From the sequence record MZ501109: a DNA stretch of 64,000 nt; one strand, written 5' to 3'. How positions within the stretch are numbered: position 1 is the stretch's first letter; each line of letters begins with the position of its first letter. This stretch comes from Escherichia phage TrudiRoth. The notes below the pieces were generated by a model. That model had not been told where the DNA came from, did no database searches, and saw nothing but the letters and a program-made list of their open reading frames with translations. Shown here piece after piece: positions 24,948 through 60,546 of this stretch. The position numbers and the translations under genes were made by a program.

Positions 24948-25463
24948 TTGATAACACAAGATGAATTAAAAAGGATTCTGGAGTATAATCCAGATGAAGG
25001 AACATTTACTTGGTTAAATAACCAAGAAGTACACAATAAAGTAAGAGGACTACCTGCTGGTTGTTTAAAACCCCACTCAGTAGATCCTAACCGAAAAGAC
25101 TTAGTAATACAAATCAATGGTAAGAAATATCCTGCACAAAATATTGCTTTCCTGTACATGACAGGAAACTTACCTAAAGTTATGGTTGATCATATAGATG
25201 GAGATTCACTAAACTATAAGTGGACTAATCTAAGAGAAGCAGACTGGCAGTTAAATAGTCAAAATAGAAAAACCAGTAAAAACAATATATTGGGTACTAA
25301 GAATATTCGGAAGAAAGGGTCTGGATTTCAAGTTAGAAAATCCATTAACGGAAAAGAATACGTGAAAACTCTTCCAACTCTCGAAGAGGCGATAGAGTAT
25401 CGAGATTCTTTAATCCTCTCTATAACCAAAGACCCAACACTACTTAGAAACACAGATAAATAG
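24948..25463 (+). CDS. HNH homing endonuclease with AP2-type DNA-binding domain (TTG start), inserted between nrdA and nrdB
   Basis: HNH segment HNKVRGL...VDHIDGDSLNYKWTNLR; AP2-like GTKNIRKKGSGFQVRKSINGKEY; three paralogs elsewhere in window. Confidence 0.7.
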   Translation: MITQDELKRILEYNPDEGTFTWLNNQEVHNKVRGLPAGCLKPHSVDPNRKDLVIQINGKKYPAQNIAFLYMTGNLPKVMVDHIDGDSLNYKWTNLREADWQLNSQNRKTSKNNILGTKNIRKKGSGFQVRKSINGKEYVKTLPTLEEAIEYRDSLILSITKDPTLLRNTDK

Positions 25464-25471
25464 GAGAACTA

Positions 25472-26617
25472 ATGACAACTTTACTTAACTTAAACTGGGA
25501 TCATACCAATAAAGATCTATTTCTCGGTGATTCTCTTGGTATTGCAGATTATGTACGAGTAGCTCATCCAGAGCTAGAAAGGCTGGCGTTATTAGCTCGC
25601 TCTCAATTCTGGACTGAAACTGAAATCAGTCTGGAAGCTGATAAGAAACAATGGCCAAACCTTCCGCGTGATATTCAGGAAATTACTCTCCTGAACTTAG
25701 CATGGCAGACCCAAACAGATTCTTTCATTAGCCGTGCTCCTGAAGCAGCTATTATGCCGCTTGTAAGCCGTCCTGAATTGGAGGGTATGCTCAAGCAGTG
25801 GAGCTACTTCGAAGATCTGCATAGCCGTGCATATAGTAACATTATTCGTAACGTTCTGACTGATCCAGCAGAATTTATTGATTCTGTAACTAAAAACCAA
25901 GAAGCATTTGCACGTATCGCAGATTCTGTTGAACTGTTTGATGAATTGTATCTGTTAGGTCAGTATTTCCTTGCAGTACGTGATCATCGTGGTGATAATA
26001 CTTATCCAGAAACTGAGTTCCCTGAAGTTAAACGTGAAACTCAGGCTAAGCTGTTAGATGCTTACTTTGCAATCTACGGTCTGGAAGCAATGCAGTTCTA
26101 CGCATCCTTTGCATGTACCTTTGCTCTAGCAGAGAACGATATTCTGCAAGGTATTGCCAAGAACCTGCAACTAATCGCTAAAGATGAAGCTCTACATACT
26201 CAAATGTCTAAAGCTATCATCCAGATTATGTTCCAGCAGTTTGATAAAGATCTGGTAGACGAAGCATTAGCTAAAGCACCAGCACAACTCCTAAAAACTC
26301 TGAAAACTGAGATTGAATGGGGCCACTTTATCTTTAAAGGCCGCAGTCTGATTGGTTTGAACGCAGAATTGCTTGAAGAATACCTTTACTTTGTAGGACG
26401 TAACGCATTTATGCACATTGGTGTAGAATGGCCAAGCCACTTACCTGTAATTACTAAGAACCCTATTCCGTGGATTATGAACTGGCTGGATACTACTTCC
26501 TTACAGCCTGCCCCACAAGAAATCCAGATTGGTGCAGCATATCGTGTGGGTCAGGTAACTGAAACTTCTGCTGATACCCTGAAAGATCTGGGTAACGAAT
26601 TTGAGGGCATGTTCTAA
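25472..26617 (+). CDS. nrdB: ribonucleoside-diphosphate reductase small subunit
   Basis: 381 aa immediately downstream of nrdA; acidic/His residues spaced as in di-iron R2 proteins. Confidence 0.8.
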   Translation: MTTLLNLNWDHTNKDLFLGDSLGIADYVRVAHPELERLALLARSQFWTETEISLEADKKQWPNLPRDIQEITLLNLAWQTQTDSFISRAPEAAIMPLVSRPELEGMLKQWSYFEDLHSRAYSNIIRNVLTDPAEFIDSVTKNQEAFARIADSVELFDELYLLGQYFLAVRDHRGDNTYPETEFPEVKRETQAKLLDAYFAIYGLEAMQFYASFACTFALAENDILQGIAKNLQLIAKDEALHTQMSKAIIQIMFQQFDKDLVDEALAKAPAQLLKTLKTEIEWGHFIFKGRSLIGLNAELLEEYLYFVGRNAFMHIGVEWPSHLPVITKNPIPWIMNWLDTTSLQPAPQEIQIGAAYRVGQVTETSADTLKDLGNEFEGMF

Positions 26618-27147
26618 TGATAGCAGCAATCTATGCAACTGGGCCGAATGGGGAGTTCGGCCTCAATGGTAAGCTCCCCTGGGGTTCTTTCAAAGAAGAA
26701 CTAGATATCTTCTATACTACTTTGGATTCTCTAGCACCTGATAATATTATTGTAGGTGCAGGAACTTGGTTAGCCTTCCCTGAGACTCTGCAAAAAAGAA
26801 TACTAGGAGATTCTGACCTATTTATTTATGCAAATAGATCACTACCTAACTCTGTAGGATCAGCTACACGCATAAGCAACATTGGATACCGTCTGCCTGA
26901 TTTTCTCAAGGAAGAGGTAACTGTAGTATTAGGGGGAGCAACTCTGCTTCTTGAAATGTATGTCAAAAATCATCTAGATATGGCGTATATCTCTACTATT
27001 ACTTCAGCCACACCATTATCTGCTGATGTACATCTGCATCATCATATTACTTTAACTAATTCAATGGCAACTAGAATGGACTATGTGGCAGGACAGAATG
27101 CAGATAAAACGCTTTCATTCTTACAAGAATTGGTGATATTTAAATGA
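26617..27147 (+). CDS. frd: dihydrofolate reductase
   Basis: N-terminal [21 protein letters not shown] and VVLGGATLL resemble DHFR; position between nrdB and thymidylate synthase. Confidence 0.65.
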
Positions 27148-27998
27148 AGCAATATATTGAAACTGGAAAACGTATTCTTGAAGAGGGTGTATGGGTAACG
27201 AATCCTAGAACAGGGGTTCGTTGCCTAACCATTATTGATGCAGACTTTACCTTTAACGTAGGAGCAGGAGAACTGCCGCTAGTAACTACTCGTAAAGCAT
27301 TTGCTAAACAAGCAATAATGGAAATGATCGGATATCTCCGTGGGTACGACTCAGCAGCACAATTCCGCGCTATTGGTGTTAATACATGGAATGCTAATGC
27401 AAATGAAAATATTGCCTGGCTAGGTAATCCATTCCGTAAAGGCGAGGATGATATGGGACGAGTCTATGGTGTTCAAGGACGTCATTGGACTAATTCTGAT
27501 GGTATGGTATTTGATCAGTTAGCCAAAGTCTATCATAATTTGAAAAGAGGGATTGACGATCGTGGAGAAATTTTAACTTTTTGGAACCCTGGGGAATTTC
27601 GTAAAGGATGCCTACGTCCGTGTATGCATACCCATCAATTCTCTATTTTAGGTGATACACTATACCTAAACTCTTTCCAGAGGTCTAATGATTTCTTGCT
27701 GGGCCAAGTATTTAATATGGTGCAATGCTATGCACTTCTAGCTATTATGGCACAGATTACAGGTCTTAAGCCAGGTATTGCTCGTCAAAAGATTATTAAT
27801 CTTCATATCTATGAAGATCAGTATAATGTTCTGATGGAGCACAAGCAATTCGATCGTGAACCTTTTGCACCTCCTACTTTAGAAATCAATCCAAATATTA
27901 GAACTTTGGATGATGTATTAACGTGGGTAAGTAAGGATGATTTTACTGTTCGTGGCTATGAACACCATCCTGCTATTGCATATCCATTTACGGTGTAA
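27144..27998 (+). CDS. thyA: thymidylate synthase
   Basis: Catalytic-cysteine region [12 protein letters not shown] and LGQVFNMVQ. Confidence 0.8.
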
Positions 27999-28046
27999 CA
28001 TATATTAATTATACTATTATTTGTCATATTCTTTCTAAAACATTTT

Positions 28047-28355
28047 ATGGCCGATTATCCACTCCAAACACCATATATGCTAAAAAAGACGCATAAAATA
28101 GGGTGGAAACTTCCATTATTAACCCATTCGCTAGTACATGCTGGATTAACATTTGCAATTCTAATCCTATTCACATCACCAGGAATGTCTATAGCTTTAG
28201 CTATTATGGAATTAATTCTACACTTTATTATAGATTATTGGAAAGCACAACGCTGTAAATACGCTATAAGCGATGCTAAGTTTTGGATAGCTTTAGGATT
28301 TGATCAGTTACTGCATTATCTGACATACGCCCTAATAATCTTGATTATAATCTAA
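28047..28355 (+). CDS. small membrane protein (102 aa)
   Basis: Three hydrophobic segments. Confidence 0.5.
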   Translation: MADYPLQTPYMLKKTHKIGWKLPLLTHSLVHAGLTFAILILFTSPGMSIALAIMELILHFIIDYWKAQRCKYAISDAKFWIALGFDQLLHYLTYALIILIII

Positions 28356-28360
28356 TTCAA

Positions 28361-28384
28361 ATAGCCCTTCGGGGCTATTATATT
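28361..28384 (+). terminator. Rho-independent terminator
   Basis: 7-bp stem atagccc/gggctat with ttcg loop, then T-rich run. Confidence 0.6.
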
Positions 28385-28394
28385 TAAATTTCAT

Positions 28395-28423
28395 TTGCTT
28401 ACTGAGTGAAATTCAAATATAAT
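28395..28423 (+). promoter_or_regulatory. early-type sigma70 promoter (TTGCTT-17-TATAAT)
   Basis: tcatTTGCTTactgagtgaaattcaaaTATAATatac. Confidence 0.55.
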
Positions 28424-28453
28424 ATACTTCTAATTTGACAGAAGGATTTAATA

Positions 28454-29032
28454 ATGACAGCCATAGTAGCATTTAAATATAAAGATAAAGTATACTTAGC
28501 CGGTGATCGTATGGGTTCTAATGGCTATACGAAACTGCTGGTTAAAAATCCGAAAGTATTCAAAATCTCTGATGATTTGTGCTTCGGATACACTAGTTCC
28601 TTCTACATGGGACAATTACTAGAGCATAGCTTTACTGTACCACCACGTTTAGCAGATATTTCTGATGATAAATATTTATATACGGAAATAGTACCTAAAT
28701 TACGTGATATGTTTAACCAGAAAGATTTTGGCGAAAAGAAAAATGAAAAATATGCTGAACCTAATCTGGGACAATTTATTATGCTCTACAAAGGAAGAAT
28801 CTTTATTTTCCAATCTAATGCTTCTATTCTAGAAGTTGAATATGCCGGTGTAGGCTGTGGAGGAGAAGATGTACTTTCCAGTATTCGTACAGGTTTAGCT
28901 ATTGCGGATTGTCGAGCCACAGATTTAGATGTAGATGATATATTTGAAATCATTGATCTGGCTTTTACGCATTGTGCAGATTATATGTGTGGTGTATCTT
29001 CTCAACATGATATTTTAGTAATTGGAGAATAA
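28454..29032 (+). CDS. putative Ntn-hydrolase / HslV-like peptidase fold protein (192 aa)
   Basis: N-terminus MTAIVAFKYKDKVYLAGD resembles HslV TTIVSVRR...VIAGD with Thr at position 2; GVGCGG near C-terminus; inference only. Confidence 0.4.
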   Translation: MTAIVAFKYKDKVYLAGDRMGSNGYTKLLVKNPKVFKISDDLCFGYTSSFYMGQLLEHSFTVPPRLADISDDKYLYTEIVPKLRDMFNQKDFGEKKNEKYAEPNLGQFIMLYKGRIFIFQSNASILEVEYAGVGCGGEDVLSSIRTGLAIADCRATDLDVDDIFEIIDLAFTHCADYMCGVSSQHDILVIGE

Positions 29033-29034
29033 AT

Positions 29035-29304
29035 ATGTCTATTCTTTTATCTGCTTTAGAAGCAAAACAAAATACTATTGCTAGCATTAAAAAGGAAGTA
29101 ATTGACCTAGAATCACTTATTGCCGTAGAGATTGACAAAGCTATTAAAGATAAAGAATTTAATTGTCACATCCAGGGATTAACTGAATACTCAGAAAACG
29201 CTAGAAATAGCGTCATGCAAAAACTTAGCAAACTAGGTTATGTTGTAGAAGCTAAGTATGAACAGCGTGAAGGTTTTTGGCTTGAAATTGATTGGAGCAA
29301 ATAA
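29035..29304 (+). CDS. hypothetical protein (89 aa)
   Basis: ORF track. Confidence 0.5.
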   Translation: MSILLSALEAKQNTIASIKKEVIDLESLIAVEIDKAIKDKEFNCHIQGLTEYSENARNSVMQKLSKLGYVVEAKYEQREGFWLEIDWSK

Positions 29305-29780
29305 TGTCGGTTTTCCACATATATACAGATGGTGCATGTAAAGGCAATCCTGGTTTAGGTGCGTGGGGATTCGTTGTCTATAATGATAATGATGATCGTA
29401 TTGGCTCTAAATCTGGCTTCAGCCCTAAAACTACTAATAACGAAATGGAACTTACTGCAATTGTAGAAGTTCTTCGTTGGTCTACTAAGAAAGATAATCG
29501 TCCAGTAATTATCTACACTGATTCTGCTTACTGCAAAAATGGTATGGAAAGCTGGATGTGGTCTTGGCAGAAGAAAGGCTGGAAGAAGGGAGATGGTGAA
29601 ACCCCTCTTAATCTAGAACTCTGGCAAGAAGCATTTAAACTAACCCAACAGTACATTAACTTCCATGATACCAATCCAACCTTTGTTAAGGTTAAAGGTC
29701 ACTCAGGTATTCGTGGTAATGAAGAAGTTGATGCTCTATGCAATACTGTAATTACTGAGCAAGAACTTGCTGAGATGTAA
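29304..29780 (+). CDS. rnhA: ribonuclease H
   Basis: MSVFHIYTDGACKGNPGLGAWG and TDSAY, VKGHSG...NEEVD; start may instead be 29292. Confidence 0.85.
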   Translation: MSVFHIYTDGACKGNPGLGAWGFVVYNDNDDRIGSKSGFSPKTTNNEMELTAIVEVLRWSTKKDNRPVIIYTDSAYCKNGMESWMWSWQKKGWKKGDGETPLNLELWQEAFKLTQQYINFHDTNPTFVKVKGHSGIRGNEEVDALCNTVITEQELAEM

Positions 29781-29800
29781 TAAATAAATTAAAAATTCAC

Positions 29801-29829
29801 TTGCTTAAAGCCCTCGAATTTAGTATAAT
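29801..29829 (+). promoter_or_regulatory. early-type sigma70 promoter (TTGCTT-17-TATAAT)
   Basis: attcacTTGCTTaaagccctcgaatttagTATAATattcg. Confidence 0.6.
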
Positions 29830-29856
29830 ATTCGTATTGAAAGTGAGGAGGGCTTT

Positions 29857-30135
29857 ATGCGAATTTACAACTCAAATTCATTAGGATTTAAACCTTTGAG
29901 AAAACGCGCACAATCTCCGCGTCAGATCAGAAAGGCAAATATTGGTGAGCCAGAAACTAGGCTTCCACCACCTCCGGAGCAACGTCTAGTTTACCTAGAT
30001 GAAGAGTTAGCCGAAAGGGAACGCAAAGCTCAAGAAGAAATTGAGCGTAAGAAACTGTGTACTGCTCCTGCGTATAACAAGGGTGGTTATCAATACGTTT
30101 CCAGTGAGGAACAAGCTAAGATGATCGGCAGATAA
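29857..30135 (+). CDS. hypothetical protein (92 aa)
   Basis: ORF track, promoter and RBS gaggaggg. Confidence 0.55.
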   Translation: MRIYNSNSLGFKPLRKRAQSPRQIRKANIGEPETRLPPPPEQRLVYLDEELAERERKAQEEIERKKLCTAPAYNKGGYQYVSSEEQAKMIGR

Positions 30136-30151
30136 TTTTTAAAAAATTCAT

Positions 30152-30180
30152 TTGCTAAACGCTTCAAAATTTAGTATAAT
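30152..30180 (+). promoter_or_regulatory. early-type sigma70 promoter (TTGCTA-17-TATAAT)
   Basis: attcatTTGCTAaacgcttcaaaatttagTATAAT. Confidence 0.6.
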
Positions 30181-30218
30181 ATATCTCATAAATTGATCAA
30201 CAAAAAGGAAAACAAATA

Positions 30219-30734
30219 ATGGCTAAGCAGAAAAACGCAAAAACTCAGGCAGCTCCGGCAGTTAAAACTTTCGCTCAGACCGAAGCCAATCGTAAGGCTC
30301 GTCTGGAACGTCATCTGCGTAAGCATCCTAGCGATGCTCAGGCTCAGACTGCTCTGAAGTCTCCGGTTCCGATTCGTCAGAAGCCGAAGGCTAAGAACTC
30401 CACTCGCGCAACTGCTAAGCAGGTTGTGTTCATCAAGGGTGAAGGTCATAAGTCTGTACCGGTAACTCTGAGCTTTAACGGAGGTGCTGAGATGTTCGCC
30501 CGCAACGGTATGGCTCTGAAAGATTACGAAAAAGCAGTCAATCAGAAGCGTAAGCCAATGGCTGACGTAATGCGTGAATCCCGTGGACAGTTTGGCTCCG
30601 TTAAACCGAATATCTTCGGGGTAGAGTATAGCCGTGACAACGTTCGCGCTCTGTGCTATGGTATCGGTATTAAGTTTACTGGTGCTTCTGATCGTAAATC
30701 CACTAAACCTGCTCGTAAGCGTAAAGCGAAGTAA
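30219..30734 (+). CDS. basic, apparently highly expressed protein (171 aa)
   Basis: Host-like high-expression codon bias, promoter, RBS; preferred over the overlapping minus-strand ORF. Confidence 0.6.
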   Translation: MAKQKNAKTQAAPAVKTFAQTEANRKARLERHLRKHPSDAQAQTALKSPVPIRQKPKAKNSTRATAKQVVFIKGEGHKSVPVTLSFNGGAEMFARNGMALKDYEKAVNQKRKPMADVMRESRGQFGSVKPNIFGVEYSRDNVRALCYGIGIKFTGASDRKSTKPARKRKAK

Positions 30735-30795
30735 TGATTGATGGGGCGAAAGCCCCATATACTAACTCTTTCTCTGACTAATTAAGGATATTTTT

Positions 30796-31011
30796 ATGTT
30801 CTCTAAGAAACCACGTTCCGTTACTGAAATCGTTGCTTCCTTTACCACTATTACTGATGAACTTCAAGCTCGTATTGAAGCTGACCAGAAAACTGCTGCT
30901 GATATTCAGAAACAGCAGGAAGAACTCGCTCTGAAACTGGCTGAAACCAATAAGAGTGAAAAATCTGCTCAAACTATTAAGGAAAATATCCTTAAACTGC
31001 TGGGCAAGTAA
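30796..31011 (+). CDS. hypothetical protein (71 aa)
   Basis: ORF track. Confidence 0.5.
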   Translation: MFSKKPRSVTEIVASFTTITDELQARIEADQKTAADIQKQQEELALKLAETNKSEKSAQTIKENILKLLGK

Positions 31012-31020
31012 TTTAAATCA

Positions 31021-31043
31021 GGGGGCGAAAGCCCCTCTTATTT
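31021..31043 (+). terminator. terminator-like GNRA hairpin
   Basis: gggggc-gaaa-gcccct followed by cttattt. Confidence 0.5.
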
Positions 31044-31052
31044 GGAGAAACT

Positions 31053-31265
31053 ATGCGTAACTTCGTTGCAAAGAATGATTTTAACCGTGCTAGCACTCAC
31101 AAGTCTGCTAGAGACTACACTCGTCTTTCTAAACATGAGCTTCTAGAAGAAATCATGGAAGAAAACTGGGATGTTAGTGAAAATGGAACAGACCTGTTTG
31201 AAGAAGGGGAACTTCCTCTGAAAGACCCCAAACAGTGGGAGTCTATTAAAGAGACAGCTCTTTAA
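31053..31265 (+). CDS. hypothetical protein (70 aa)
   Basis: ORF track. Confidence 0.5.
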   Translation: MRNFVAKNDFNRASTHKSARDYTRLSKHELLEEIMEENWDVSENGTDLFEEGELPLKDPKQWESIKETAL

Positions 31266-31295
31266 TAGTTTTCTACAACAATAAAGGACATAATT

Positions 31296-31997
31296 ATGAA
31301 ATTCAAGCCCTTTGGTATGCTGGACATTGAATCTCTAGGTACTCCAGGAAATTGCGGTACTACTCATATTGCAATGCCTTCTTTCGCTTTTGTAGCGATG
31401 CACGGAATTGATAAAGATCCTGATCTGGTATTCGTTACTCTAGACGTTCAAGATCAGCTTAATGCGGGTGCTAAGGTAACTGCCTCTACTATTGCATTCT
31501 GGATGGATCAAGCTAAAAACAGTCCATCTGCGCTCCATATTATGGAGGCTCTAAATGGTCGTAATCCTAAACTGATTGCCTTCCGTGATGGTAAGCATCA
31601 CTGCACTAATGACGTAGGCTCTAATTATGCTGCCTTCTCTATGGCTCAGAACATTATGGAATTGTCTCTAGGAGATAATGCTCTGTATTACGGCAATGGC
31701 CCAGAGTTTGATATGACTATCTACTCTGCAAATACGTTCCATGCCGGAACCCATGAAGAAGTAGTTCCGTGGAAATTCTGGAACTTAGGTAATGTTCGAT
31801 CTTTCCGTAATCAATGGATGCAAGCTGGTTATAGTTATAAAGATCTAGAAGCCGAAGGTGCTAGCTGGGCAAAAGCTAAAATGGAAAAGATGGATACCAT
31901 TCGTTATGGAATCTATCCAGTTAAACATGATCCAGCATTCGATGCTTTAGTTGAAAGTTATTGTGTAGCCATCATGATCGAAAAAATCAAAATTTGA
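31296..31997 (+). CDS. putative DEDDh-type 3'-5' exonuclease-like protein (233 aa)
   Basis: Candidate Exo I MLDIESLG, Exo II-like GNGPEFDM, Exo III-like KHDPAFDAL; inference. Confidence 0.45.
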   Translation: MKFKPFGMLDIESLGTPGNCGTTHIAMPSFAFVAMHGIDKDPDLVFVTLDVQDQLNAGAKVTASTIAFWMDQAKNSPSALHIMEALNGRNPKLIAFRDGKHHCTNDVGSNYAAFSMAQNIMELSLGDNALYYGNGPEFDMTIYSANTFHAGTHEEVVPWKFWNLGNVRSFRNQWMQAGYSYKDLEAEGASWAKAKMEKMDTIRYGIYPVKHDPAFDALVESYCVAIMIEKIKI

Positions 31998-31998
31998 T

Positions 31999-32027
31999 TT
32001 GCTTTCAGCTCCAAAATTCTGTATAAT
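31999..32027 (+). promoter_or_regulatory. early-type sigma70 promoter (TTGCTT-17-TATAAT)
   Basis: gatTTGCTTtcagctccaaaattctgTATAATatattcataaatttgagaga. Confidence 0.6.
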
Positions 32028-32067
32028 ATATTCATAAATTTGAGAGAACAACAAAAGGAAAATAATT

Positions 32068-32250
32068 ATGCCAGTATCTAAAAACGTCCGTAAAAATGGT
32101 AAAGTAGCAAAACGTAACCTGGGTCTGCGTCGTATGGCTGAGCGTCAGTCCGGCATCCAGAAAATCTTTAATGTACTGAATCGCACCAACCCGAATATTG
32201 ATAACAGTTCTGATACTGTTCTGCGCACTCTGCTCGCAATCGGTCTGTAA
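32068..32250 (+). CDS. small basic protein (60 aa)
   Basis: ORF track, promoter. Confidence 0.5.
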   Translation: MPVSKNVRKNGKVAKRNLGLRRMAERQSGIQKIFNVLNRTNPNIDNSSDTVLRTLLAIGL

Positions 32251-32304
32251 TAGACCGTTTTTAAAACAAGTTCAAATCTCAAACTTCATATAAGGAAGCA
32301 AATA

Positions 32305-32943
32305 ATGACTACTCGTATCTCTAAAACTCGTGCTCTGGCAACTATCAAGTCTCTGGAAGCTAAAATCCGTAAAGCTACTGAACAACAGCTTTTGATTGCT
32401 GTTGGTGAAGGTAAAGACAAGAATCAAGTTGTCGTTGGTGCTGCAATCGAAGTAGATGCTCTGTCTACTCGTATTAAAACTGATTTCCAGTCTCTGCTGG
32501 ATATGATGACCCAGCGTGATCATCTGAAAGCAGCGCTGATCAAGAGCAATGCTGAAACTGTTGTAGAGATCGGTTCCCGCTCTATGACTGTTGCGGAAGC
32601 AATCGAAGCTAAGCGTTCTATGGAACTCAAAGCTCAGTTGCTGGCTAACATGCGTAAGCAGTTCCATGCTGCTACTGTTAAGTTTAACACTCAAAAGGCT
32701 CAGTTTGATGCCAAGTATGAGCGTTTGCAGGATACCATGGCTACCCGTGACAAGAAGACTTCCGAGGATGAAGTTAAGATGCAGCTTAACCTGCTGGAAC
32801 TCAAGAACACTCCGTTCCTGATCGATCCGCTGGAGCTGGAAAAGCTGATCAAGCAACACGACGAAGAGTACCAGGACTTTGCAACCAACGTTGACTTTGT
32901 TCTGTCTGAGTCCAACGCCTCTACTTTTATCGAAGTAGAGTAA
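32305..32943 (+). CDS. hypothetical, apparently highly expressed coiled-coil protein (212 aa)
   Basis: Host-like codon bias; overlapping antisense ORFs judged shadows. Confidence 0.6.
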   Translation: MTTRISKTRALATIKSLEAKIRKATEQQLLIAVGEGKDKNQVVVGAAIEVDALSTRIKTDFQSLLDMMTQRDHLKAALIKSNAETVVEIGSRSMTVAEAIEAKRSMELKAQLLANMRKQFHAATVKFNTQKAQFDAKYERLQDTMATRDKKTSEDEVKMQLNLLELKNTPFLIDPLELEKLIKQHDEEYQDFATNVDFVLSESNASTFIEVE

Positions 32944-33327
32944 TAATTTAAAAGACTAGTAAATCGGTAGACGAAAGCCCAAGCATCTTACCTCGCAGCA
33001 GCGGTTGAAATACGAGGTTAAATAAGACCGCTGACCATACTATAAAGTATAATCTATTGGAGATTATGTTTATTACATCAGACATTTAATCTGACACGTA
33101 AAAACAAAAGGTCGTTGGTAGTACCAACACAACTTCAAAGATCAACGCTCAAGTATGAAAGCTGAAAAGTTAAAAGCACTCAAACTTCTAACCTTCTAAA
33201 GCTAAAAGATGCAAAGTATTCGTTGATGATTCAAACCCTAGATCAAAGGTACATGGCTCATAAGATATGGCCTGTGGCGCCTCTAGGCTGTTTATCGGTT
33301 TACTAGTCTCTCAATTTAAAAATGTAT

Positions 33328-42407: not shown

Positions 42408-42632
42408 ATGACAGAACAAGAATTGAAAGAACGTAAGCTGGTAATGCTTCGCTTACTAAACATTTTCTCTGGTATGGATGGTGGTATTGACTTCATTCAA
42501 CTACGCACTTTTGTAGAAGAAGCAGAAGGCGAGGCTATCACTAGGATTCTTAAACATATGGGTTTGTTACTAGATGCTGCTAATGTGGCTACTCAATATA
42601 AACTCGAAGATTTACCGGAGCGTGTTAAATGA
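42408..42632 (+). CDS. hypothetical protein (74 aa)
   Basis: ORF track, start after RBS. Confidence 0.5.
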   Translation: MTEQELKERKLVMLRLLNIFSGMDGGIDFIQLRTFVEEAEGEAITRILKHMGLLLDAANVATQYKLEDLPERVK

Positions 42633-42820
42633 AAATGTTAGTTAAATTTAAGTGTTGTGGTTCTGAACATATTTTCACTCGTTATAGAGAGTTTAAGATG
42701 TGTGAGTGCGGTAAATCAGGCTACGATGCTGGAGATGGCTATTATGCTAGATCTATAGGACATTCTAAAGATCTAGAGTTTACTAATCTCGAAAAGCAAG
42801 ATAAATCGACCGTTGGCTGA
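42629..42820 (+). CDS. small Cys-containing protein (63 aa); 3' end overlaps a tRNA gene
   Basis: ORF track. Confidence 0.45.
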   Translation: MKMLVKFKCCGSEHIFTRYREFKMCECGKSGYDAGDGYYARSIGHSKDLEFTNLEKQDKSTVG

Positions 42821-43264: not shown

Positions 43265-43846
43265 ATGCACGGAATATCCTTACCCATTCCAGGGTTTGAG
43301 GAGTACTTAGTAAGTTTGGATGGGTTAGTATTTAGTATCAAATCAAACAAAATACTAACCCAAATAACCAGTAATTACGGATACTTATCTATACGTCTCC
43401 ATAAAAATGGTCAACAGAGAAATACCGGTGTACATAGGATTTTAGCATGTGCATTTAAGAAATTACCAAGTCTAGACTCTGAACTAGAAGTTGACCATAT
43501 TAACACAGACATTACTTATTGGGGTCTTAATAACTTACAAGTGCTCACAAAAGAGCAGCATCTAGAAAAGACTTTAAAAGATAAAGGATTTAGTAAACTA
43601 AACCATGATAATTGTTGTAAGGATTGTGGTAAAGCTATTTCTTTAAAAGCTGAAAAATGTCAGGAGTGCTCTTCACATAAACCAAAAGATATCTCTATAA
43701 CTAAAGAAATAATCGAGGTTACAGTAAGAGAGCTAGGCTGGTCAGGTGCAGGGAGAAAGTTAAGTTATTCAGATAATGGGTTGCGTAAAAGATACACTTC
43801 TTTAGGAGGCAATCCTAAAGAACTTAAAAAGTTAAAGGTACTATAG
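43265..43846 (+). CDS. HNH homing endonuclease (HNH_3-like); 3' end overlaps tRNA-Asp
   Basis: HRILACAF...EVDHINTDITYWGLNNLQVLTKEQH; Cys-rich CKDCGKAIS...CQEC. Confidence 0.7.
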   Translation: MHGISLPIPGFEEYLVSLDGLVFSIKSNKILTQITSNYGYLSIRLHKNGQQRNTGVHRILACAFKKLPSLDSELEVDHINTDITYWGLNNLQVLTKEQHLEKTLKDKGFSKLNHDNCCKDCGKAISLKAEKCQECSSHKPKDISITKEIIEVTVRELGWSGAGRKLSYSDNGLRKRYTSLGGNPKELKKLKVL

Positions 43847-43911
43847 TCTAACGGTTAGGATACTCCCCTGTCACGGGAGAGGTAGGGTTTCGATTACCCT
43901 TAGTACCGCCA
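43837..43911 (+). tRNA. tRNA-Asp (anticodon GUC)
   Basis: Perfect acceptor ggtacta/tagtacc, anticodon arm ctccc-cuGUCac-gggag, T-arm agggtTTCGATTaccct, CCA. Confidence 0.75.
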
Positions 43912-45078: not shown

Positions 45079-45243
45079 ATGAAATTATTTCGTTTAAAAG
45101 TAAGTGATTTACGTTCTAGCAAAGATCGTAAGAAGTATCCACTAGCCCATTACGGTAAAGATGAAAACGAAGTGATGGCGGAATTTGGTATTAATCACCC
45201 TTACTTAAAAGTTTATTCTATTAAGGAAGTCTATGCTAATTAA
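45079..45243 (+). CDS. small ORF (54 aa), below ORF-track threshold
   Basis: Own translation MKLFRLKVSDLRSSKDRKKYPLAHYGKDENEV... Confidence 0.35.
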   Translation: MKLFRLKVSDLRSSKDRKKYPLAHYGKDENEVMAEFGINHPYLKVYSIKEVYAN

Positions 45244-45706
45244 TAAAGTTTTAGCTGCCTTAAACCTTCCTGATAACTTCATTATAGATGATAAGCTCAT
45301 AAGAGCTTATATGAGCAAATATAACGAAATTTCAGGTAAAGAAGGTAAGTTAAAAACTTCAGAGTTTAGATTCTGTTATCGAATGGCAGCCTTAAATCTC
45401 TTAAAATATAAAAGGGAGCATAAAATACCTATAACGGAAGGTTTTGTATATGTAATTGGTAATCCAGCATGGCCAGGCATGTATAAAATAGGTATGACTA
45501 TAGATGTGAATGAGAGGTTAACAAGTTATCAAACTTATTCACCTAATAGAGACTACAAGCTATACCATTTCAGATTTTCGTCGGATAAAAGACGTACAGA
45601 GAAAGAATTACATAATCTTCTTAAAGATTATAGAGTATCTGGAGAATGGTTTGAAGTACCTGTACTAGATGCTTTTAAATTATTAGTAGAAAAATTGGAT
45701 TGCTAG
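45233..45706 (+). CDS. T5orf172-like (GIY-YIG-related) putative homing endonuclease; 3' end overlaps a tRNA
   Basis: GFVYVIGNPAWPGMYKIGMT... and YRVSGEWFEV; recalled from the T5orf172 domain, not searched. Confidence 0.5.
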   Translation: MLINKVLAALNLPDNFIIDDKLIRAYMSKYNEISGKEGKLKTSEFRFCYRMAALNLLKYKREHKIPITEGFVYVIGNPAWPGMYKIGMTIDVNERLTSYQTYSPNRDYKLYHFRFSSDKRRTEKELHNLLKDYRVSGEWFEVPVLDAFKLLVEKLDC

Positions 45707-45774
45707 CTCAACTGGATAAGAGTAGCGGACCTTTAATCCGTCAGTTCTGGGTTCGAATCCCAGGCAATCCACCA
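45697..45774 (+). tRNA. tRNA-Lys (anticodon UUU) with C at position 33
   Basis: Perfect acceptor ggattgc/gcaatcc, D-stem gctc/gagt, anticodon arm gcgga-ccUUUaa-tccgt, T-arm ctgggTTCGAATcccag, CCA. Confidence 0.6.
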
Positions 45775-47114: not shown

Positions 47115-47208
47115 GGAAAAGCAAATAGACTGGCGACTAAACCCGATTGGAAATCGGTTGAGTAATAGCAATATTGCCTTATGGGTTCAACTCCCATCTT
47201 TTCCGCCA
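47115..47208 (+). tRNA. tRNA-Ser (anticodon GGA), long variable arm
   Basis: Perfect acceptor ggaaaag/cttttcc, anticodon arm ccga-uuGGAaa-tcgg, T-arm atgggTTCAACTcccat, CCA. Confidence 0.7.
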
Positions 47209-47223: not shown

Positions 47224-47739
47224 ATGCTAACACAACAAGAATTAAAATCCGTGTTGTTATATAAACCAGATACTGGAGAGTTTTTCTGGAAATATAGATC
47301 TGATTTAGATAGTCAATGGAATAGTAAATATGCTGGAACTAGGGCAGGATTTATTAATGAACTAGGCTATTGGAAGATAACTCTAGGAAATACTAGCTGG
47401 TTAGCACATCGTCTAGCATTCTTATACATGACTGGGGAAATACCAGATCTAATTGACCACAAGGATCAAGATAAGTCCAATACTAAATGGGATAACTTAC
47501 GAATAGCCACTGTATCACAGAATCAGGCTAATGCTAAATTAAGGGTAGATAATACCTCTGGGTACAAAAATGTAACTTGGCATAAGCAAAGAAATAAGTG
47601 GAAAGTAGAAGTACGTAAAGATGGCAAACTCCATTATGGTGGACTTTTTACAGAACTAGATAAAGCTGTAAATAAAGCTAATAATCTTAGACGTGAGTTA
47701 TTCGGGGAATTTGCAGTATATGAAGAGTTTATGGGGTAG
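47224..47739 (+). CDS. HNH-AP2 homing endonuclease (paralog); 3' end overlaps tRNA-Ser
   Basis: HRLAFLYMTGEIPDLIDHKDQDKSNTKWDNLRIATVSQNQAN and AP2-like SGYKNVTWHKQRNKWKVEVRKDGK. Confidence 0.75.
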   Translation: MLTQQELKSVLLYKPDTGEFFWKYRSDLDSQWNSKYAGTRAGFINELGYWKITLGNTSWLAHRLAFLYMTGEIPDLIDHKDQDKSNTKWDNLRIATVSQNQANAKLRVDNTSGYKNVTWHKQRNKWKVEVRKDGKLHYGGLFTELDKAVNKANNLRRELFGEFAVYEEFMG

Positions 47740-47829
47740 GTCAATCCAACGGCTGGCGCTGGACTCCGACTTGAAATCGGTTGATCGTAGTGATACGGTG
47801 TAAGGGTTCGATCCCCTTACCTACCTCCA
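47735..47829 (+). tRNA. tRNA-Ser (anticodon UGA), long variable arm
   Basis: Perfect acceptor ggtaggt/acctacc, D-stem tcca/tgga, anticodon arm ccga-cuUGAaa-tcgg, T-arm aagggTTCGATCccctt, CCA. Confidence 0.7.
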
Positions 47830-57985: not shown

Positions 57986-58393
57986 ATGTCAGATCGTTAC
58001 TATACTCAGATGGCTAACCATTACAATATGGCTCCGTATGAATTGAACATCGCATTACGTGACCTCGATTCACCAGAGCGTGCAAAACTTGAGAAAAAGG
58101 CGGGAATTCGTATGTCTAGCAAGGGCAAGAAACTTACTCGTATTGACTTAAATACCATGTTAATGGAAGAGCTTGGCGTGAATATTGAAGGTCAGAAGTT
58201 GCCTCTCAATGTTCTTGAAACGATGCTGGATAAAGTCAAAAAGAAAACCTATAAGAAAGTACAAGTACCGGAAGGCAGGCTAAAAGCCCCTTATCAGGCT
58301 GCTGTATCTGAGTGCTTAGGTGCTACCTTAGATCTTAGCACTGCAACTGTTAAAGTGATGCGTGCGTTTTTAGAGGCAGTTAATAAATTGTGA
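57986..58393 (+). CDS. hypothetical protein (135 aa)
   Basis: ORF track. Confidence 0.5.
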   Translation: MSDRYYTQMANHYNMAPYELNIALRDLDSPERAKLEKKAGIRMSSKGKKLTRIDLNTMLMEELGVNIEGQKLPLNVLETMLDKVKKKTYKKVQVPEGRLKAPYQAAVSECLGATLDLSTATVKVMRAFLEAVNKL

Positions 58394-58917
58394 TTACCCA
58401 AGAAAGATTGAAGGAGCTTCTAGAGTACAATCCAGATACAGGGATATTTATATGGAAGAGCCGAAAGATAGATAGAAGTGGTTTTAACAAGCAATTCGCA
58501 GGAAAAGTTGCTGGCAATCCTCAAAATAACGGTTATATCAATATTACTGTTGATTCCGAAGTTCATGGGGCACATAGATTAGCTTTTCTTTACATGGAAG
58601 GCTATATGCCTGCAAGGGTAGACCACGAAAACATGGTTAGGTCTGATAACAAATGGCTTAACCTACGAGAAGCTACAGTCTCTCAAAATGGTGCTAATGC
58701 GTTAAAGTATTCTAACAATAGTTCTGGATATAAGAACGTATACTGGACAAAGAAAACGTGTAAATGGCAAGTACAGGTTATGAAAGATGGTAAATCCTAC
58801 TCGGGAGGATACTTCACAAACCTCAAAGATGCTGTAGAAACTGCCAATGAGTTAAGATTTGAATTATTTGGGGAATTTGCCCTATATGAACCATTTAAAG
58901 GAGATAAACATGAGTAA
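58390..58917 (+). CDS. HNH-AP2 homing endonuclease (paralog, GTG start)
   Basis: HRLAFLYMEGYMPARVDHENMVRSDNKWLNLREATVSQN and AP2-like SGYKNVYWTKKTCKWQVQVMKDGK. Confidence 0.75.
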   Translation: MITQERLKELLEYNPDTGIFIWKSRKIDRSGFNKQFAGKVAGNPQNNGYINITVDSEVHGAHRLAFLYMEGYMPARVDHENMVRSDNKWLNLREATVSQNGANALKYSNNSSGYKNVYWTKKTCKWQVQVMKDGKSYSGGYFTNLKDAVETANELRFELFGEFALYEPFKGDKHE

Positions 58918-59209: not shown

Positions 59210-59238
59210 CCCAGATCTTAGCTGATCTGGGTTTTTTA
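59210..59238 (+). terminator. Rho-independent terminator
   Basis: 8-bp stem cccagatc/gatctggg, then ttttttatt. Confidence 0.65.
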
Positions 59239-59242
59239 TTAC

Positions 59243-59271
59243 TTGCTTTCTGCTAAAAATTTTGATATAAT
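59243..59271 (+). promoter_or_regulatory. early-type sigma70 promoter (TTGCTT-17-TATAAT)
   Basis: ttacTTGCTTtctgctaaaaattttgaTATAATatatttataaattgatgagagg. Confidence 0.6.
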
Positions 59272-59302
59272 ATATTTATAAATTGATGAGAGGAGTATCA
59301 CA

Positions 59303-59683
59303 TTGAATTACGCATATCTTATAATACATAACAACGTGGTCTGTGGTACTCGTGCTGTAGAAATGGGAATCACAGAAGAAAAATATAAGTCACTACCTGA
59401 AAAAGAGCAAGAATATTACGTTGAGCAAGCTGCTTGGGAATATGCTGAAGTTTATCCCGAAGAACGTGAAGGTCGTGTTACTATTGTTGTTGCTCTGGGG
59501 CTGGTGGGCTGTGATACCGAAGTTGATACAGATCTAGAAACACTTGAAGAATGGGAAGAGCTGGATATTGCAGAGCAAAATGCTATTATCCGTGAATCTT
59601 TCTGGGAAGCAGTAGACTGTCACGTTGTCTTTGAGCCAAACGATACAGAAGCTGAAAAACATACTAATTGGATGACTCGATAA
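59303..59683 (+). CDS. hypothetical acidic protein (126 aa, TTG start)
   Basis: ORF track; RBS gagaggag 8 nt upstream. Confidence 0.5.
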   Translation: MNYAYLIIHNNVVCGTRAVEMGITEEKYKSLPEKEQEYYVEQAAWEYAEVYPEEREGRVTIVVALGLVGCDTEVDTDLETLEEWEELDIAEQNAIIRESFWEAVDCHVVFEPNDTEAEKHTNWMTR

Positions 59684-60546
59684 TGAAAAAAGAATTTAAC
59701 CTGCATGAAATGTTAGTAGTACCAGACGATGTTAACCTGTTCTTCGTAGGAGATATTCACGGCTGTAATGATATGCTGGAAGATGCTCTTAAACTAGCAG
59801 GATATAAAGAAAAGCGTGACTATGTTGTCTGTGTTGGCGACTTAATTGACCGTGGCCCGCAGAACTTACAGGTTCTAGCCAAATTCTTATATAACCCACG
59901 TTTCCGTAGCGTTCGTGGCAACCATGATCAGTTTATGATTGCCGGGGATTATGCCAACTGGATGTATAATGGTGGAATGTGGGCAATGAATGATCTGGAT
60001 ACCGATACAATTAAAGGTATCGCAGAAGATATGGCAGTTAAAATGCCAGTATTCATGACTGTACTCCATCGTGGCAAGAAATACGGTATTGTTCATGGTG
60101 GAATACCATTCCAGTATAAAGATGCGGGATTCGATGTACATACACCTAATTGGGACGATATTATTGATCATATCGCTGCAAGTGAAAATGATCCTAATGA
60201 TCATCCTAGTTATTACATTGAGCCATATCTATGGGATCGTGATGTAATTCAGGAAATTGGGTTCATCCTAGCACGTGGAGGAGCTACTCATGAGTACTTC
60301 AATCGTTATGCTAGCTTTAAGAATCAGTTAGTAGTTGAAGTACCTCCAGTTAAAGGTGTGGACTATGTATTCCATGGGCACACAGGTGTACCATACCCAA
60401 TCCTGTACCAGAACCGCGTATACCTAGATACTGGCGGTGTGTTCAACGGGAAGTTGACGGTTGCGCAAGTTAATGATGAAGCCGGTAAGATTATGACATT
60501 TACCACAGATAAAAATGATAGCTGTGGTGTACAGAGGATTCTGTAA
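59683..60546 (+). CDS. Ser/Thr protein phosphatase (calcineurin-like)
   Basis: GDIHGCNDML, GDLIDRGPQN, GNHD, and a His-rich C-terminal region; start could be 59668. Confidence 0.8.
   Translation: MKKEFNLHEMLVVPDDVNLFFVGDIHGCNDMLEDALKLAGYKEKRDYVVCVGDLIDRGPQNLQVLAKFLYNPRFRSVRGNHDQFMIAGDYANWMYNGGMWAMNDLDTDTIKGIAEDMAVKMPVFMTVLHRGKKYGIVHGGIPFQYKDAGFDVHTPNWDDIIDHIAASENDPNDHPSYYIEPYLWDRDVIQEIGFILARGGATHEYFNRYASFKNQLVVEVPPVKGVDYVFHGHTGVPYPILYQNRVYLDTGGVFNGKLTVAQVNDEAGKIMTFTTDKNDSCGVQRIL

What the first reader, a model, noticed from the sequence alone, without database searches (positions are those of the whole stretch)
24948..60546. Six homing-endonuclease-like genes, several running into tRNA 5' ends
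Four paralogous HNH-AP2 genes (24948, 47224, 58390, 60546), one HNH_3-type (43265) and one T5orf172-like gene (45233) are present. One sits between nrdA and nrdB, and three end 5-10 nt inside the acceptor stem of the downstream tRNA. This points to active or recent homing and may explain the duplicated or degraded tRNAs and the split ligase and phosphoesterase genes.
Basis: partly seen in the sequence, partly recalled or inferred. Interest (0 to 1): 0.45.

Follow-up and report, generated by a model that had tools for sequence, protein, structure and literature searches.

The report
Homing endonuclease genes in T5-like phage
The window is a T5-like (Epseptimavirus) phage genome carrying six free-standing homing-endonuclease genes, three of which borrow their stop codon from the next tRNA gene; this is real, but it is an already described trait of T5-like phages and not a new kind of element.

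Summary
Six intact endonuclease-like ORFs sit at the stated coordinates. Four are paralogous HNH_3 genes of the I-HmuI type with an AP2-like C-terminal domain. One is a NUMOD4/HNH gene related to T5 F-TflI. One is a T5orf172/MUG113 gene. One HNH gene lies in the nrdA-nrdB spacer. All three genes in the tRNA cluster end 10, 10 and 5 nt inside the next tRNA.

The window is a T5-like phage, closest to E. coli phage Shin27. In about 340-530 related GenBank records, each gene is present in a minority and absent from most: 73/441, 38-56/527, 64-85/423, 5/154, 29/418 and 6/341.

Ending inside a tRNA is general. At least 10 different endonuclease/tRNA combinations in T5-like phages do it. Two of the genes are tightly linked to a private allele of the downstream tRNA.

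This is known biology: T5 F-TflI/II/IV, P-TflVIII between nrdA and nrdB, and T4 SegB.

The split ligase is conserved in a relative and has no endonuclease gene in it. The window's odd tRNAs are not next to an endonuclease gene. The broken phosphoesterase is adjacent to one, but a causal link is only suggestive.

The parts
24948..25463 (+). HNH_3 (I-HmuI-type) free-standing homing-endonuclease gene in the nrdA-nrdB spacer. It has a TTG start and corresponds to T5 'P-TflVIII'.
   Evidence: Pfam HNH_3 and phrog_99. The insert is window 24924-25445 relative to the empty site in SuperGirl. It is present in 73 of 441 related records. Others are empty or hold a different HNH gene at the same spot. 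A 100% identical copy is annotated 'hegH putative H-N-H-endonuclease P-TflVIII' in OQ383621.1.
43265..43846 (+). NUMOD4 + HNH endonuclease gene of the T5 F-Tfl family. Its stop codon TAG is positions 8-10 (U8-A9-G10) of tRNA-Asp.
   Evidence: It is 38-43% identical to the T5 tRNA-cluster HNH genes, including the one annotated TflI. MSP1 and rokbiter have empty sites. Counts are 38 of 527 with flanks and 56 records with the gene plus its tRNA allele.
43837..43911 (+). tRNA-Asp(GUC), the allele linked to gene 43265. Its acceptor, D and T arms differ from the allele in genomes without the gene. Only the anticodon arm is shared.
   Evidence: ARAGORN and Infernal at 63.1 bits. The alignment is and the linkage counts. 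Exceptions are Kenya-K18 and smaug.
45233..45706 (+). T5orf172/MUG113 gene that behaves as a free-standing homing-endonuclease gene. Its stop codon TAG is positions 8-10 of tRNA-Lys(UUU).
   Evidence: The insert is 45234-45697 relative to MSP1, DaisyDussoix and beppo. Counts are 64 of 423 with flanks, and 85 of 86 records with this tRNA-Lys allele also carry the gene.
45697..45774 (+). tRNA-Lys(UUU), an allele found almost only together with the T5orf172 gene.
47115..47208 (+). tRNA-Ser(GGA), the left neighbour of gene 47224.
47224..47739 (+). HNH_3/AP2-like endonuclease gene inserted in the 12-nt spacer between two tRNA-Ser genes. Its stop codon TAG is positions 3-5 of the tRNA-Ser(UGA) acceptor stem.
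   Evidence: The empty site in Lindwurm reads Ser(GGA)-12 nt-Ser(UGA), and T5 has the two Ser genes 7 nt apart. Only 5 of 154 records carry the cassette. MSP1 has it at 97.7% amino-acid identity.
47735..47825 (+). tRNA-Ser(UGA) with an unusual D arm. Default ARAGORN misses it. This allele is common in T5-like phages without the endonuclease gene.
   Evidence: Infernal, relaxed ARAGORN and the fold with alignment. About 150 records carry the allele.
58390..58917 (+). HNH_3/AP2-like endonuclease gene with a GTG start. It is inserted cleanly at the junction of two overlapping genes, a 135-aa ORF and a thioredoxin-like gene.
   Evidence: The insert is 58388-58903, with 5 nt of boundary homology, relative to Shin27, IrmaTschudi, EH1 and GreteKellenberger. 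It is present in 29 of 418 records.
60546..61058 (+). HNH_3/AP2-like endonuclease gene that replaces two small ORFs, between the Ser/Thr phosphatase gene and a phosphoesterase gene.
   Evidence: Window 60550-61046 (497 nt) replaces 559 nt of Shin27, which holds ORFs of 369 and 207 bp. It is present in 6 of 341 records. EH1 has it at 99.4% amino-acid identity.
61058..61656 (+). Calcineurin-like phosphoesterase gene immediately downstream of gene 60546. An 8-nt tandem duplication (CTGTCACA, 61394-61409) splits it into two ORFs.
   Evidence: Pfam Metallophos on the first fragment, the alignment and the coordinates.
22453..24846 (+). nrdA, the left flank of gene 24948.
   Evidence: Annotations of relatives.
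25472..26617 (+). nrdB, the right flank of gene 24948. Its first ~150 nt are only 71-78% identical to alleles that are empty or hold another HNH gene, against at least 96% further in.

Best explanation
The window comes from a T5-like Epseptimavirus phage that carries six free-standing homing-endonuclease genes.

Proposed mechanism (inferred from the families, not tested here). In a mixed infection, each enzyme cuts or nicks the corresponding locus of a phage that lacks the gene. Repair copies the gene and some flanking sequence from the carrier genome. This spreads the gene and makes the genomes mosaic.

Families. Four of the genes are paralogs of the I-HmuI-type HNH_3 family with an AP2-like DNA-binding domain. 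One is a NUMOD4/HNH enzyme related to T5 F-TflI. One is a T5orf172 protein, which I place in the GIY-YIG superfamily from memory of the Pfam clan.

Placement in the tRNA cluster. Each of the three genes there sits directly upstream of a tRNA gene, has no stop codon of its own, and terminates on a TAG inside the tRNA. Two use tRNA positions 8-10 and one uses acceptor positions 3-5. The endonuclease mRNA is therefore probably part of the tRNA precursor. RNase P cleavage at the tRNA 5' end would then remove the stop codon. This is the low-expression mechanism already proposed for T4 segB and for T5 F-TflI/II.

Linkage to tRNA alleles. Two of the three genes travel with a private allele of the downstream tRNA (Asp, Lys-UUU). 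This fits co-conversion of flanking DNA, resistance of that allele to self-cleavage, or both.
For: Shown here:
- Family assignments: (I-HmuI 1U3E, E 3.5e-7).
- Intact ORFs with the invariant D-H/N/N motif.
- The window is an Epseptimavirus, 99.9% identical to Shin27 over window 20000-39000.
- Presence/absence polymorphism at all six sites.
- Base-precise insertion boundaries against empty alleles.
- Different HNH genes occupying the same nrdA-nrdB spacer.
- Cassettes 99-100% identical in diverged backgrounds, including other genera (Shivani, phiR2-01).
- A diverged patch at the 5' end of nrdB next to gene 24948.
- The reciprocal case, a clean empty site in the window (62247-62251) for an HNH gene present in Shin27.
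- Stop codons inside tRNAs. The same rule holds for at least 10 distinct endonuclease/tRNA combinations in Shin27, IrmaTschudi, MSP1, DaisyDussoix, T5, rokbiter, beppo and an IMG/VR contig.
- tRNA-allele linkage: 56 of 73 for Asp and 85 of 86 for Lys.
- A recombinant tRNA-Asp in smaug with the crossover inside the tRNA.

From the literature:
- T5 F-TflI/II/IV are site-specific endonucleases encoded in the tRNA region (Akulenko 2004, pmid 15456135, as cited in PMC2330249 and PMC3326045).
- P-TflVIII lies between nrdA and nrdB (PMC3326045).
- T4 SegB sits in a tRNA cluster, cuts inside tRNA genes, co-converts flanking tRNA genes, and is separated from its stop codon by tRNA processing. The same was proposed for the F-Tfl enzymes (PMC2330249).
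- Homing endonucleases are the main source of differences among T5-like genomes (PMC10644984).
Against: - No enzymatic activity, cleavage site or homing cross was tested, so 'active' is an inference from intact ORFs and population patterns.
- Gene 24948 lacks the conserved 'HR' of the AHRLAF motif that the other three paralogs have.
- To my knowledge, T5orf172 proteins have not been shown biochemically to be homing endonucleases.
- The RNase P / non-stop mRNA step is a literature proposal and not a demonstrated fact.
- Some small ORFs that are not endonuclease genes also end inside tRNAs, for example 42629..42820 in tRNA-Cys. The overlap may therefore partly reflect tight packing.
- The tRNA-Ser(UGA) allele next to gene 47224 is common without the gene, so allele linkage is not general.
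- The database counts include duplicate RefSeq/GenBank records.
Confidence: 0.85

Rival explanations
1. The ORF/tRNA overlap has no regulatory role. It is a passive by-product of where these genes insert (flush against the 5' end of a tRNA gene, perhaps because the enzymes recognise tRNA-gene sequence) and of strong selection for compactness. The ORF simply runs on to the first in-frame stop, and UAG at tRNA positions 8-10 is a frequent built-in stop.
For: - The right-hand insertion boundary of the T5orf172 gene coincides exactly with tRNA position +1.
- Gene 47224 sits in a 12-nt spacer, and the TAG it uses already exists in the empty allele.
- Small ORFs that are not endonuclease genes also run 9-16 nt into tRNAs.
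- Overlap lengths vary from 0 to 24 nt.
- No excess of promoter-like sites was seen in the cluster.
Against: - About 20 of 21 tRNA-cluster endonuclease genes examined, from three unrelated protein families and at least 10 different tRNAs, end inside or abut the next tRNA. That is more uniform than simple packing predicts.
- The same arrangement evolved independently in T4 segB, where processing at the tRNA 5' end was reported to separate the ORF from its stop codon (PMC2330249).
- The two readings do not exclude each other.
Confidence: 0.35
2. The genes are relics. They are fixed or drifting remnants of past invasions that no longer home, and the presence/absence pattern reflects ordinary recombination between phages and not endonuclease-driven conversion.
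For: - Gene 24948 lacks part of a conserved motif.
- Two genes use weak TTG or GTG start codons.
- A truncated copy of the 58390-type gene is annotated in chee130_1.
- Activity was not tested.
Against: - All six ORFs are full length against family profiles.
- The core HNH residues are invariant.
- Cassettes are 99-100% identical across diverged genomes and genera while the flanks are not.
- Near-identical genomes (window vs Shin27) differ by four such genes. This implies very recent gain or loss.
Confidence: 0.12
3. The HNH/AP2 proteins are domesticated phage proteins and not selfish elements. Possible roles include transcription regulators acting through the AP2 domain, packaging-associated HNH proteins, or factors that exclude competing phages.
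For: - An AP2-like DNA-binding domain is predicted.
- HNH proteins have other roles in some phages (general knowledge).
- Localized marker exclusion is an inherent side effect of such enzymes (PMC2330249).
Against: - Each gene is absent from most close relatives, which are viable phages.
- The genes sit in intergenic spots next to conserved genes.
- Several paralogs occur per genome at different sites.
- None is near the terminase gene.
- The closest solved relative is the intron-encoded homing nickase I-HmuI.
Confidence: 0.05

Closest known systems
[quoted passage not shown] 2004, pmid 15456135)
   Same: - Same phage family and same tRNA gene cluster.
- Gene 43265 is 38-43% identical to the T5 tRNA-cluster HNH genes, one of which is annotated TflI in Lindwurm.
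- Like them, it ends inside the next tRNA.
   Different: - It is a different paralog at a different tRNA (Asp, where the T5 genes sit at Ser(GGA) or Gln).
- No biochemistry exists for the window's enzymes.
- Genes 47224 and 45233 belong to other protein families (HNH_3/AP2-like and T5orf172).
T5 P-TflVIII and the T-even phage MobE: HNH genes between nrdA and nrdB (PMC3326045)
   Same: - Gene 24948 occupies the nrdA-nrdB spacer.
- A 100% identical copy in OQ383621.1 is annotated 'putative H-N-H-endonuclease P-TflVIII'.
- The site is a hotspot that holds at least three different HNH genes in relatives.
   Different: - According to PMC5714182, MobE belongs to the classical HNH family (PF01844) and not to HNH_3.
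- The cleavage site of the T5-type enzyme is unknown.
T4 SegB (PMC2330249)
   Same: - It is a free-standing homing endonuclease inside a phage tRNA cluster.
- It targets tRNA genes and co-converts neighbouring tRNA genes, so that tRNA content differs between carriers and non-carriers.
- Its ORF is separated from its stop codon by tRNA 5' processing.
   Different: - SegB is a canonical GIY-YIG enzyme in a T4-like myovirus.
- Its stop codon starts at the tRNA 5' end, whereas here the stop lies 3-10 nt inside the tRNA.
- The target sites of the window's enzymes are unknown.
I-HmuI (PDB 1U3E), the intron-encoded HNH nickase of Bacillus phage SPO1
   Same: It is the closest solved structure by sequence to the four paralogs (E 3.5e-7, covering the HNH core). 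It is placed with Pfam HNH_3 in the same His-Me finger group in PMC5714182.
   Different: - I-HmuI is intron-encoded.
- The match covers only the HNH core.
- The four paralogs here are free-standing and are predicted to carry an AP2-like C-terminal domain.

Membership tests
HNH_3 / I-HmuI-type His-Me finger endonucleases (24948, 47224, 58390, 60546) | Pfam HNH_3 match above the curated cut-off | tested here: met
   Scores are 31.6-49.3 bits against a cut-off of 24.8. phrog_99 matches with E 1e-45 to 6e-66.
HNH_3 / I-HmuI-type His-Me finger endonucleases (24948, 47224, 58390, 60546) | Conserved catalytic D-H ... N ... N residues | tested here: met
   D81, H82, N94 and N113 are invariant in the five HNH proteins. 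Gene 24948 lacks the upstream 'HR' motif.
HNH_3 / I-HmuI-type His-Me finger endonucleases (24948, 47224, 58390, 60546) | Site-specific nicking or cleavage of DNA | not testable with these tools
   This needs purified protein and empty-site DNA.
HNH-AP2 architecture | AP2 DNA-binding domain C-terminal to the HNH core | tested here: inconclusive
   Pfam AP2 appears only in 60546 and is below its cut-off (24.8 vs 33.3 bits). The profile search against PDB sequences found no AP2 entry. The AlphaFold model has a three-strand-plus-helix domain whose best Foldseek matches are AP2 domains (7et4, 1gcc; probability about 1, but E only 0.04-0.12).
F-Tfl-type NUMOD4/HNH endonucleases of T5 (43265) | Sequence homology to the T5 tRNA-cluster HNH genes, and a NUMOD4 domain | tested here: met
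   It is 42.6%, 37.8% and 32.6% identical to three T5 genes. NUMOD4 scores 24.4 bits against a cut-off of 23.4. The HNH_3 match is below its cut-off (18.5 vs 24.8 bits), but phrog_59 HNH matches at E 8.5e-22.
T5orf172 / MUG113 (45233) | Pfam T5orf172 or MUG113 match above the cut-off | tested here: met
   MUG113 scores 66.4 bits and T5orf172 scores 55.9 bits. That these families belong to the GIY-YIG clan is from my own knowledge and was not tested.
Free-standing homing-endonuclease genes (all six) | Presence/absence polymorphism at a fixed locus among close relatives, with precise boundaries | tested here: met
Free-standing homing-endonuclease genes (all six) | Sequence divergence or co-conversion tracts in the flanks of carrier alleles | tested here: met
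   The nrdB 5' patch is 71-78% identical. Private tRNA-Asp and tRNA-Lys alleles are linked to their genes. This does not hold for the tRNA-Ser(UGA) next to 47224.
Free-standing homing-endonuclease genes (all six) | Endonuclease-dependent super-Mendelian inheritance in mixed infection | not testable with these tools
   This needs phage crosses.

The most novel reading that the evidence does not exclude
In T5-like phages, placing the stop codon inside the tRNA may be an obligatory, selected design. Endonuclease synthesis would be gated by the race between translation and RNase P processing of the tRNA precursor. The endonuclease gene plus a cleavage-resistant allele of the downstream tRNA would form a composite mobile 'tRNA cassette'. 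Such cassettes would make these endonucleases the main driver of gain, loss and chimerism of tRNA genes in phage tRNA arrays. My data show the pattern is general (at least 10 endonuclease/tRNA combinations) and that two cassettes carry private tRNA alleles. The idea itself was sketched in 2008 for T4 segB and T5 F-Tfl.
Probability: 0.3. Interest if true: 0.45.

Novelty: already known. Interest (0 to 1): 0.2.

Why it matters
The finding mostly confirms textbook behaviour. Homing endonucleases are the main source of mosaicism in T5-like phages, which are widely used as therapy and biocontrol candidates.

Two points are practically useful:
- Annotators should expect endonuclease ORFs that legitimately overlap tRNA 5' ends. 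They should also expect tRNAs that default tRNA finders miss, such as the one at 47735-47825.
- The tight linkage of two endonuclease genes to private tRNA alleles, together with recombinant broken tRNAs in relatives, gives a concrete and testable route by which these elements reshape phage tRNA repertoires.

Tried and rejected
- IMG/VR scan with the 61-aa ORF upstream of gene 43265. It returned only 3 loci, too few for population statistics, so I used the GenBank phage collection instead.
- Promoter and terminator scan of the tRNA cluster. Promoter-like sites were no more frequent than in shuffled sequence. No convincing plus-strand terminator lies between an endonuclease gene and its tRNA. 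The scan is uninformative beyond being compatible with co-transcription.
- Decayed endonuclease gene in the ORF-poor stretch 34842-35764, where IrmaTschudi has an HNH gene. tblastn found none.
- Further endonuclease genes among 20 other window ORFs. Pfam and PHROGs found none. This check was not exhaustive.
- 'Every tRNA-cluster endonuclease gene carries its own tRNA allele'. I rejected this for 47224, because its tRNA-Ser(UGA) allele is present in about 150 records without the gene.
- 'The tRNA at 47735 is a degraded pseudogene'. I rejected this. It has a perfect acceptor stem, is conserved at 97-100% in many phages, and is annotated as tRNA-Ser in several of them.
- 'The split ligase was caused by an endonuclease gene in this genome'. 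I rejected this.

Full report
**Identity of the window.** Megablast against GenBank phages shows that the window is a T5-like phage of the genus Epseptimavirus (Demerecviridae). E. coli phage Shin27 is 99.9% identical over window 20000-39000. Hundreds of Salmonella and Escherichia T5-like phages match at 90-98%. No record reproduces the tRNA region exactly; the best coverage is 76%.

**Checking the observation.**
- All six ORFs are present at the stated coordinates.
- Pfam gives HNH_3 above its cut-off for 24948, 47224, 58390 and 60546. It gives NUMOD4 plus a weak HNH_3 match for 43265, and MUG113 and T5orf172 for 45233. PHROGs agrees.
- The four HNH_3 genes share 33-54% amino-acid identity, and the D-H/N/N catalytic residues are invariant.
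- A profile of these paralogs finds one solved relative, the homing nickase I-HmuI (1U3E, E 3.5e-7).
- The 'AP2' label is only moderately supported. Pfam AP2 is sub-threshold and appears in one paralog only. An AlphaFold model of 58390 (pLDDT 77) has a C-terminal three-strand-plus-helix domain whose best Foldseek matches are plant AP2/ERF domains.
- Gene 24948 lies between nrdA and nrdB.
- The overlap claim is correct for all three genes in the tRNA cluster. Gene 43265 ends 10 nt inside tRNA-Asp and gene 45233 ends 10 nt inside tRNA-Lys(UUU).
- Gene 47224 ends 5 nt inside a tRNA-Ser(UGA) at 47735-47825. Default ARAGORN missed this tRNA, but Infernal and relaxed ARAGORN detect it. It has a perfect acceptor stem and is conserved in about 150 other phages.
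- In two cases the stop codon is the tRNA's own U8-A9-G10. In the third it is TAG at acceptor positions 3-5.

It fails at every site. Each query was the gene plus 600-nt flanks. The table gives the number of records with the same gene in the same place, out of all records that matched.

| Gene | Records with the gene / records matched | Note |
|---|---|---|
| 24948 | 73 / 441 | |
| 43265 | 38 / 527 | 56 records when only the gene's 3' end plus the tRNA is used |
| 45233 | 64 / 423 | 85 records by the junction query |
| 47224 | 0 / 434 | 5 / 154 for the cassette alone |
| 58390 | 29 / 418 | |
| 60546 | 6 / 341 | |

The counts include duplicate RefSeq/GenBank entries.

**Insertion boundaries.** Local alignments define each insertion.

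| Gene | Window segment | Compared with |
|---|---|---|
| 24948 | 24924-25445 | 13 nt of the SuperGirl spacer |
| 43265 | 43263-43852 | MSP1 |
| 45233 | 45234-45697 | MSP1, DaisyDussoix and beppo; the right edge is exactly tRNA position +1 |
| 47224 | about 47211-47727 | the 12-nt spacer between two tRNA-Ser genes, as in Lindwurm |
| 58390 | 58388-58903 | Shin27, IrmaTschudi, EH1 and GreteKellenberger; 5 nt of boundary homology |
| 60546 | 60550-61046 | replaces 559 nt holding two small ORFs |

**Further signs of mobility.**
- The nrdA-nrdB spacer holds at least three different HNH genes in different phages.
- The window has a clean empty site at 62247-62251 for an HNH gene that Shin27 carries. 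Two nearly identical genomes therefore differ by four such genes.
- Cassettes are 99-100% identical in genomes whose flanks are much more diverged, and they occur in other genera.
- The first ~150 nt of nrdB next to 24948 are only 71-78% identical to alleles without this gene. This is typical of a target or co-conversion zone.

**The tRNA overlap is a general rule.** I located tRNAs and endonuclease homologs in ten related loci. Almost every endonuclease gene in a tRNA cluster ends 0-24 nt inside the next tRNA, whether it is F-Tfl-like HNH, HNH_3 or T5orf172. The overlaps are Asp 10, Lys 10, Ser(UGA) 5, Ile 10, Pro 8, Ser(GGA) 14, Gln 23, Asn 24, Glu 15 and Pro 0. The only exception is T5 ORF070. 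A few small ORFs that are not endonuclease genes do the same, for example 42629..42820 into tRNA-Cys.

**Linkage to tRNA alleles.**
- The tRNA-Asp after 43265 differs from the allele in genomes without the gene everywhere except the anticodon arm. 56 of 73 records with this allele also have the gene.
- The tRNA-Lys(UUU) allele after 45233 is found with the gene in 85 of 86 records.
- Kenya-K18 has the linked Asp allele without the gene.
- Smaug has a chimeric tRNA-Asp that is probably dead. Its 5' half is the allele of genomes without the gene and its 3' half is the linked allele. The crossover lies in the shared anticodon arm.
- The tRNA-Ser(UGA) allele next to 47224 is common without the gene, so the linkage is not universal.

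**Mechanism.** These are most probably free-standing homing endonucleases. They would cut or nick the alleles that lack the gene during mixed infection and be copied in by recombinational repair, dragging flanking markers with them. This follows from the families and the comparative evidence; it was not tested. In the tRNA cluster the genes are part of the tRNA precursor transcripts. RNase P cleavage would detach the stop codon and lower expression. This was proposed for T4 segB and, by personal communication, for T5 F-TflI/II (PMC2330249). It is an inference here. The passive reading, in which the insertion site plus compaction explains the overlap, remains viable.

- The ligase is also annotated as separate A and B subunits in IrmaTschudi, the one relative checked. 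No endonuclease gene lies between the subunits, so these genes do not explain the split.
- The phosphoesterase directly downstream of 60546 is broken by an 8-nt tandem duplication at 61394-61409. EH1, which also carries the gene, has an independent +1 frameshift. Shin27 and GreteKellenberger, which lack the gene, are intact. That is two against two and only suggestive.
- The tRNA at 44897 is a chimera. It has a tRNA-Pro acceptor stem around a 57-nt core identical to tRNA-Lys(CUU) at 43925-43981.
- The tRNA at 46586 is tRNA-Ala(UGC) with one extra base in the anticodon loop.
- About 1.2 kb holding the His, Arg, Gln, Gln and Gly tRNAs is deleted at 48267-48280.
- None of these three tRNA lesions abuts an endonuclease gene. 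A causal link in the window is therefore not shown.

**Comparison with what is known.**
- T5 F-TflI/II/IV are characterised site-specific endonucleases encoded in the tRNA region (Akulenko 2004, cited in PMC2330249, PMC3326045 and PMC10644984).
- P-TflVIII between nrdA and nrdB, and the parallel with MobE, are described in PMC3326045.
- PMC10644984 states that homing endonucleases account for most differences among T5-like genomes.
- T4 SegB (PMC2330249) is the worked-out analogue for a homing endonuclease in a tRNA cluster, including cleavage within tRNA genes and the stop-codon/tRNA-processing relationship.
- The window's genes are 97-100% identical to genes already deposited in GenBank, several of which are annotated as homing or HNH endonucleases.

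**Verdict.** The phenomenon is already known. What this analysis adds is modest: base-precise insertion maps, evidence that the stop-codon-in-tRNA rule is general, and quantified linkage between endonuclease genes and tRNA alleles. Interest is low, about 0.2.

Noticed in passing
window 44897-44973: This tRNA is a chimera. It has the acceptor stem of the tRNA-Pro found here in relatives, around a 57-nt core (44904-44960) that is 100% identical to tRNA-Lys(CUU) at 43925-43981. Phage beppo has a Lys/Pro deletion fusion between the same two genes. This points to ectopic recombination or gene conversion between neighbouring tRNA genes.
   Followed up: partly
window 46586-46661: This is tRNA-Ala(UGC) with one extra nucleotide in the anticodon loop, giving an 8-nt loop (ARAGORN reports 'tgca'). 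It also has a C-to-T change in the T stem relative to MSP1. It is either a decaying gene or a tRNA resembling a +1 frameshift suppressor.
   Followed up: partly
window 48267-48280: This is the joint of a ~1.2-kb deletion that removes tRNA-His, Arg, Gln, Gln and Gly and small ORFs present in Shin27, IrmaTschudi and MSP1. The window therefore has fewer tRNAs than its relatives: 23 by ARAGORN plus one more by Infernal.
   Followed up: partly
window 61394-61409: An 8-nt tandem duplication (CTGTCACA CTGTCACA) frameshifts the calcineurin-like phosphoesterase gene. Phage EH1, which also carries the neighbouring HNH gene, has an independent 1-nt insertion in the same gene.
   Followed up: partly
window 62247-62251: This is a clean empty site for a 518-nt HNH_3 endonuclease gene that is present in the otherwise near-identical phage Shin27 (L001 40300..40830).
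   Followed up: yes
L019 (Salmonella phage smaug) 1474-1550: This tRNA-Asp is chimeric. Its 5' half is the allele of genomes without the endonuclease gene and its 3' half is the gene-linked allele. The crossover lies in the shared anticodon arm, and the acceptor strands no longer pair. The phage authors did not annotate it as a tRNA.
   Followed up: partly
window 7377-9486 (minus strand): The NAD-dependent DNA ligase is encoded as two ORFs. One carries the adenylation and OB domains (8515..9486) and the other the HhH and BRCT domains (7377..8159). A 355-nt gap separates them. The same A/B split is annotated in IrmaTschudi.
   Followed up: partly
window 15904-18410 (minus strand) and 28454-29032: Accessory genes that might be of interest for anti-defence: a Sir2-family protein (17559..18410), a HAD_SAK_2 domain protein (16740..17279), two adjacent DUF7415 proteins, and a proteasome-subunit-like protein (28454..29032).
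   Followed up: no
window 34842-35764: This stretch of about 920 nt has no ORF of 80 aa or more. IrmaTschudi has an HNH endonuclease gene and two small ORFs there. No endonuclease remnant was detected by tblastn.
   Followed up: partly
window 42629-42820: A conserved 63-aa ORF with no endonuclease similarity also ends 14 nt inside a tRNA (tRNA-Cys, stop at tRNA positions 12-14). The same overlap is annotated in Shin27, IrmaTschudi, rokbiter and beppo.
   Followed up: partly
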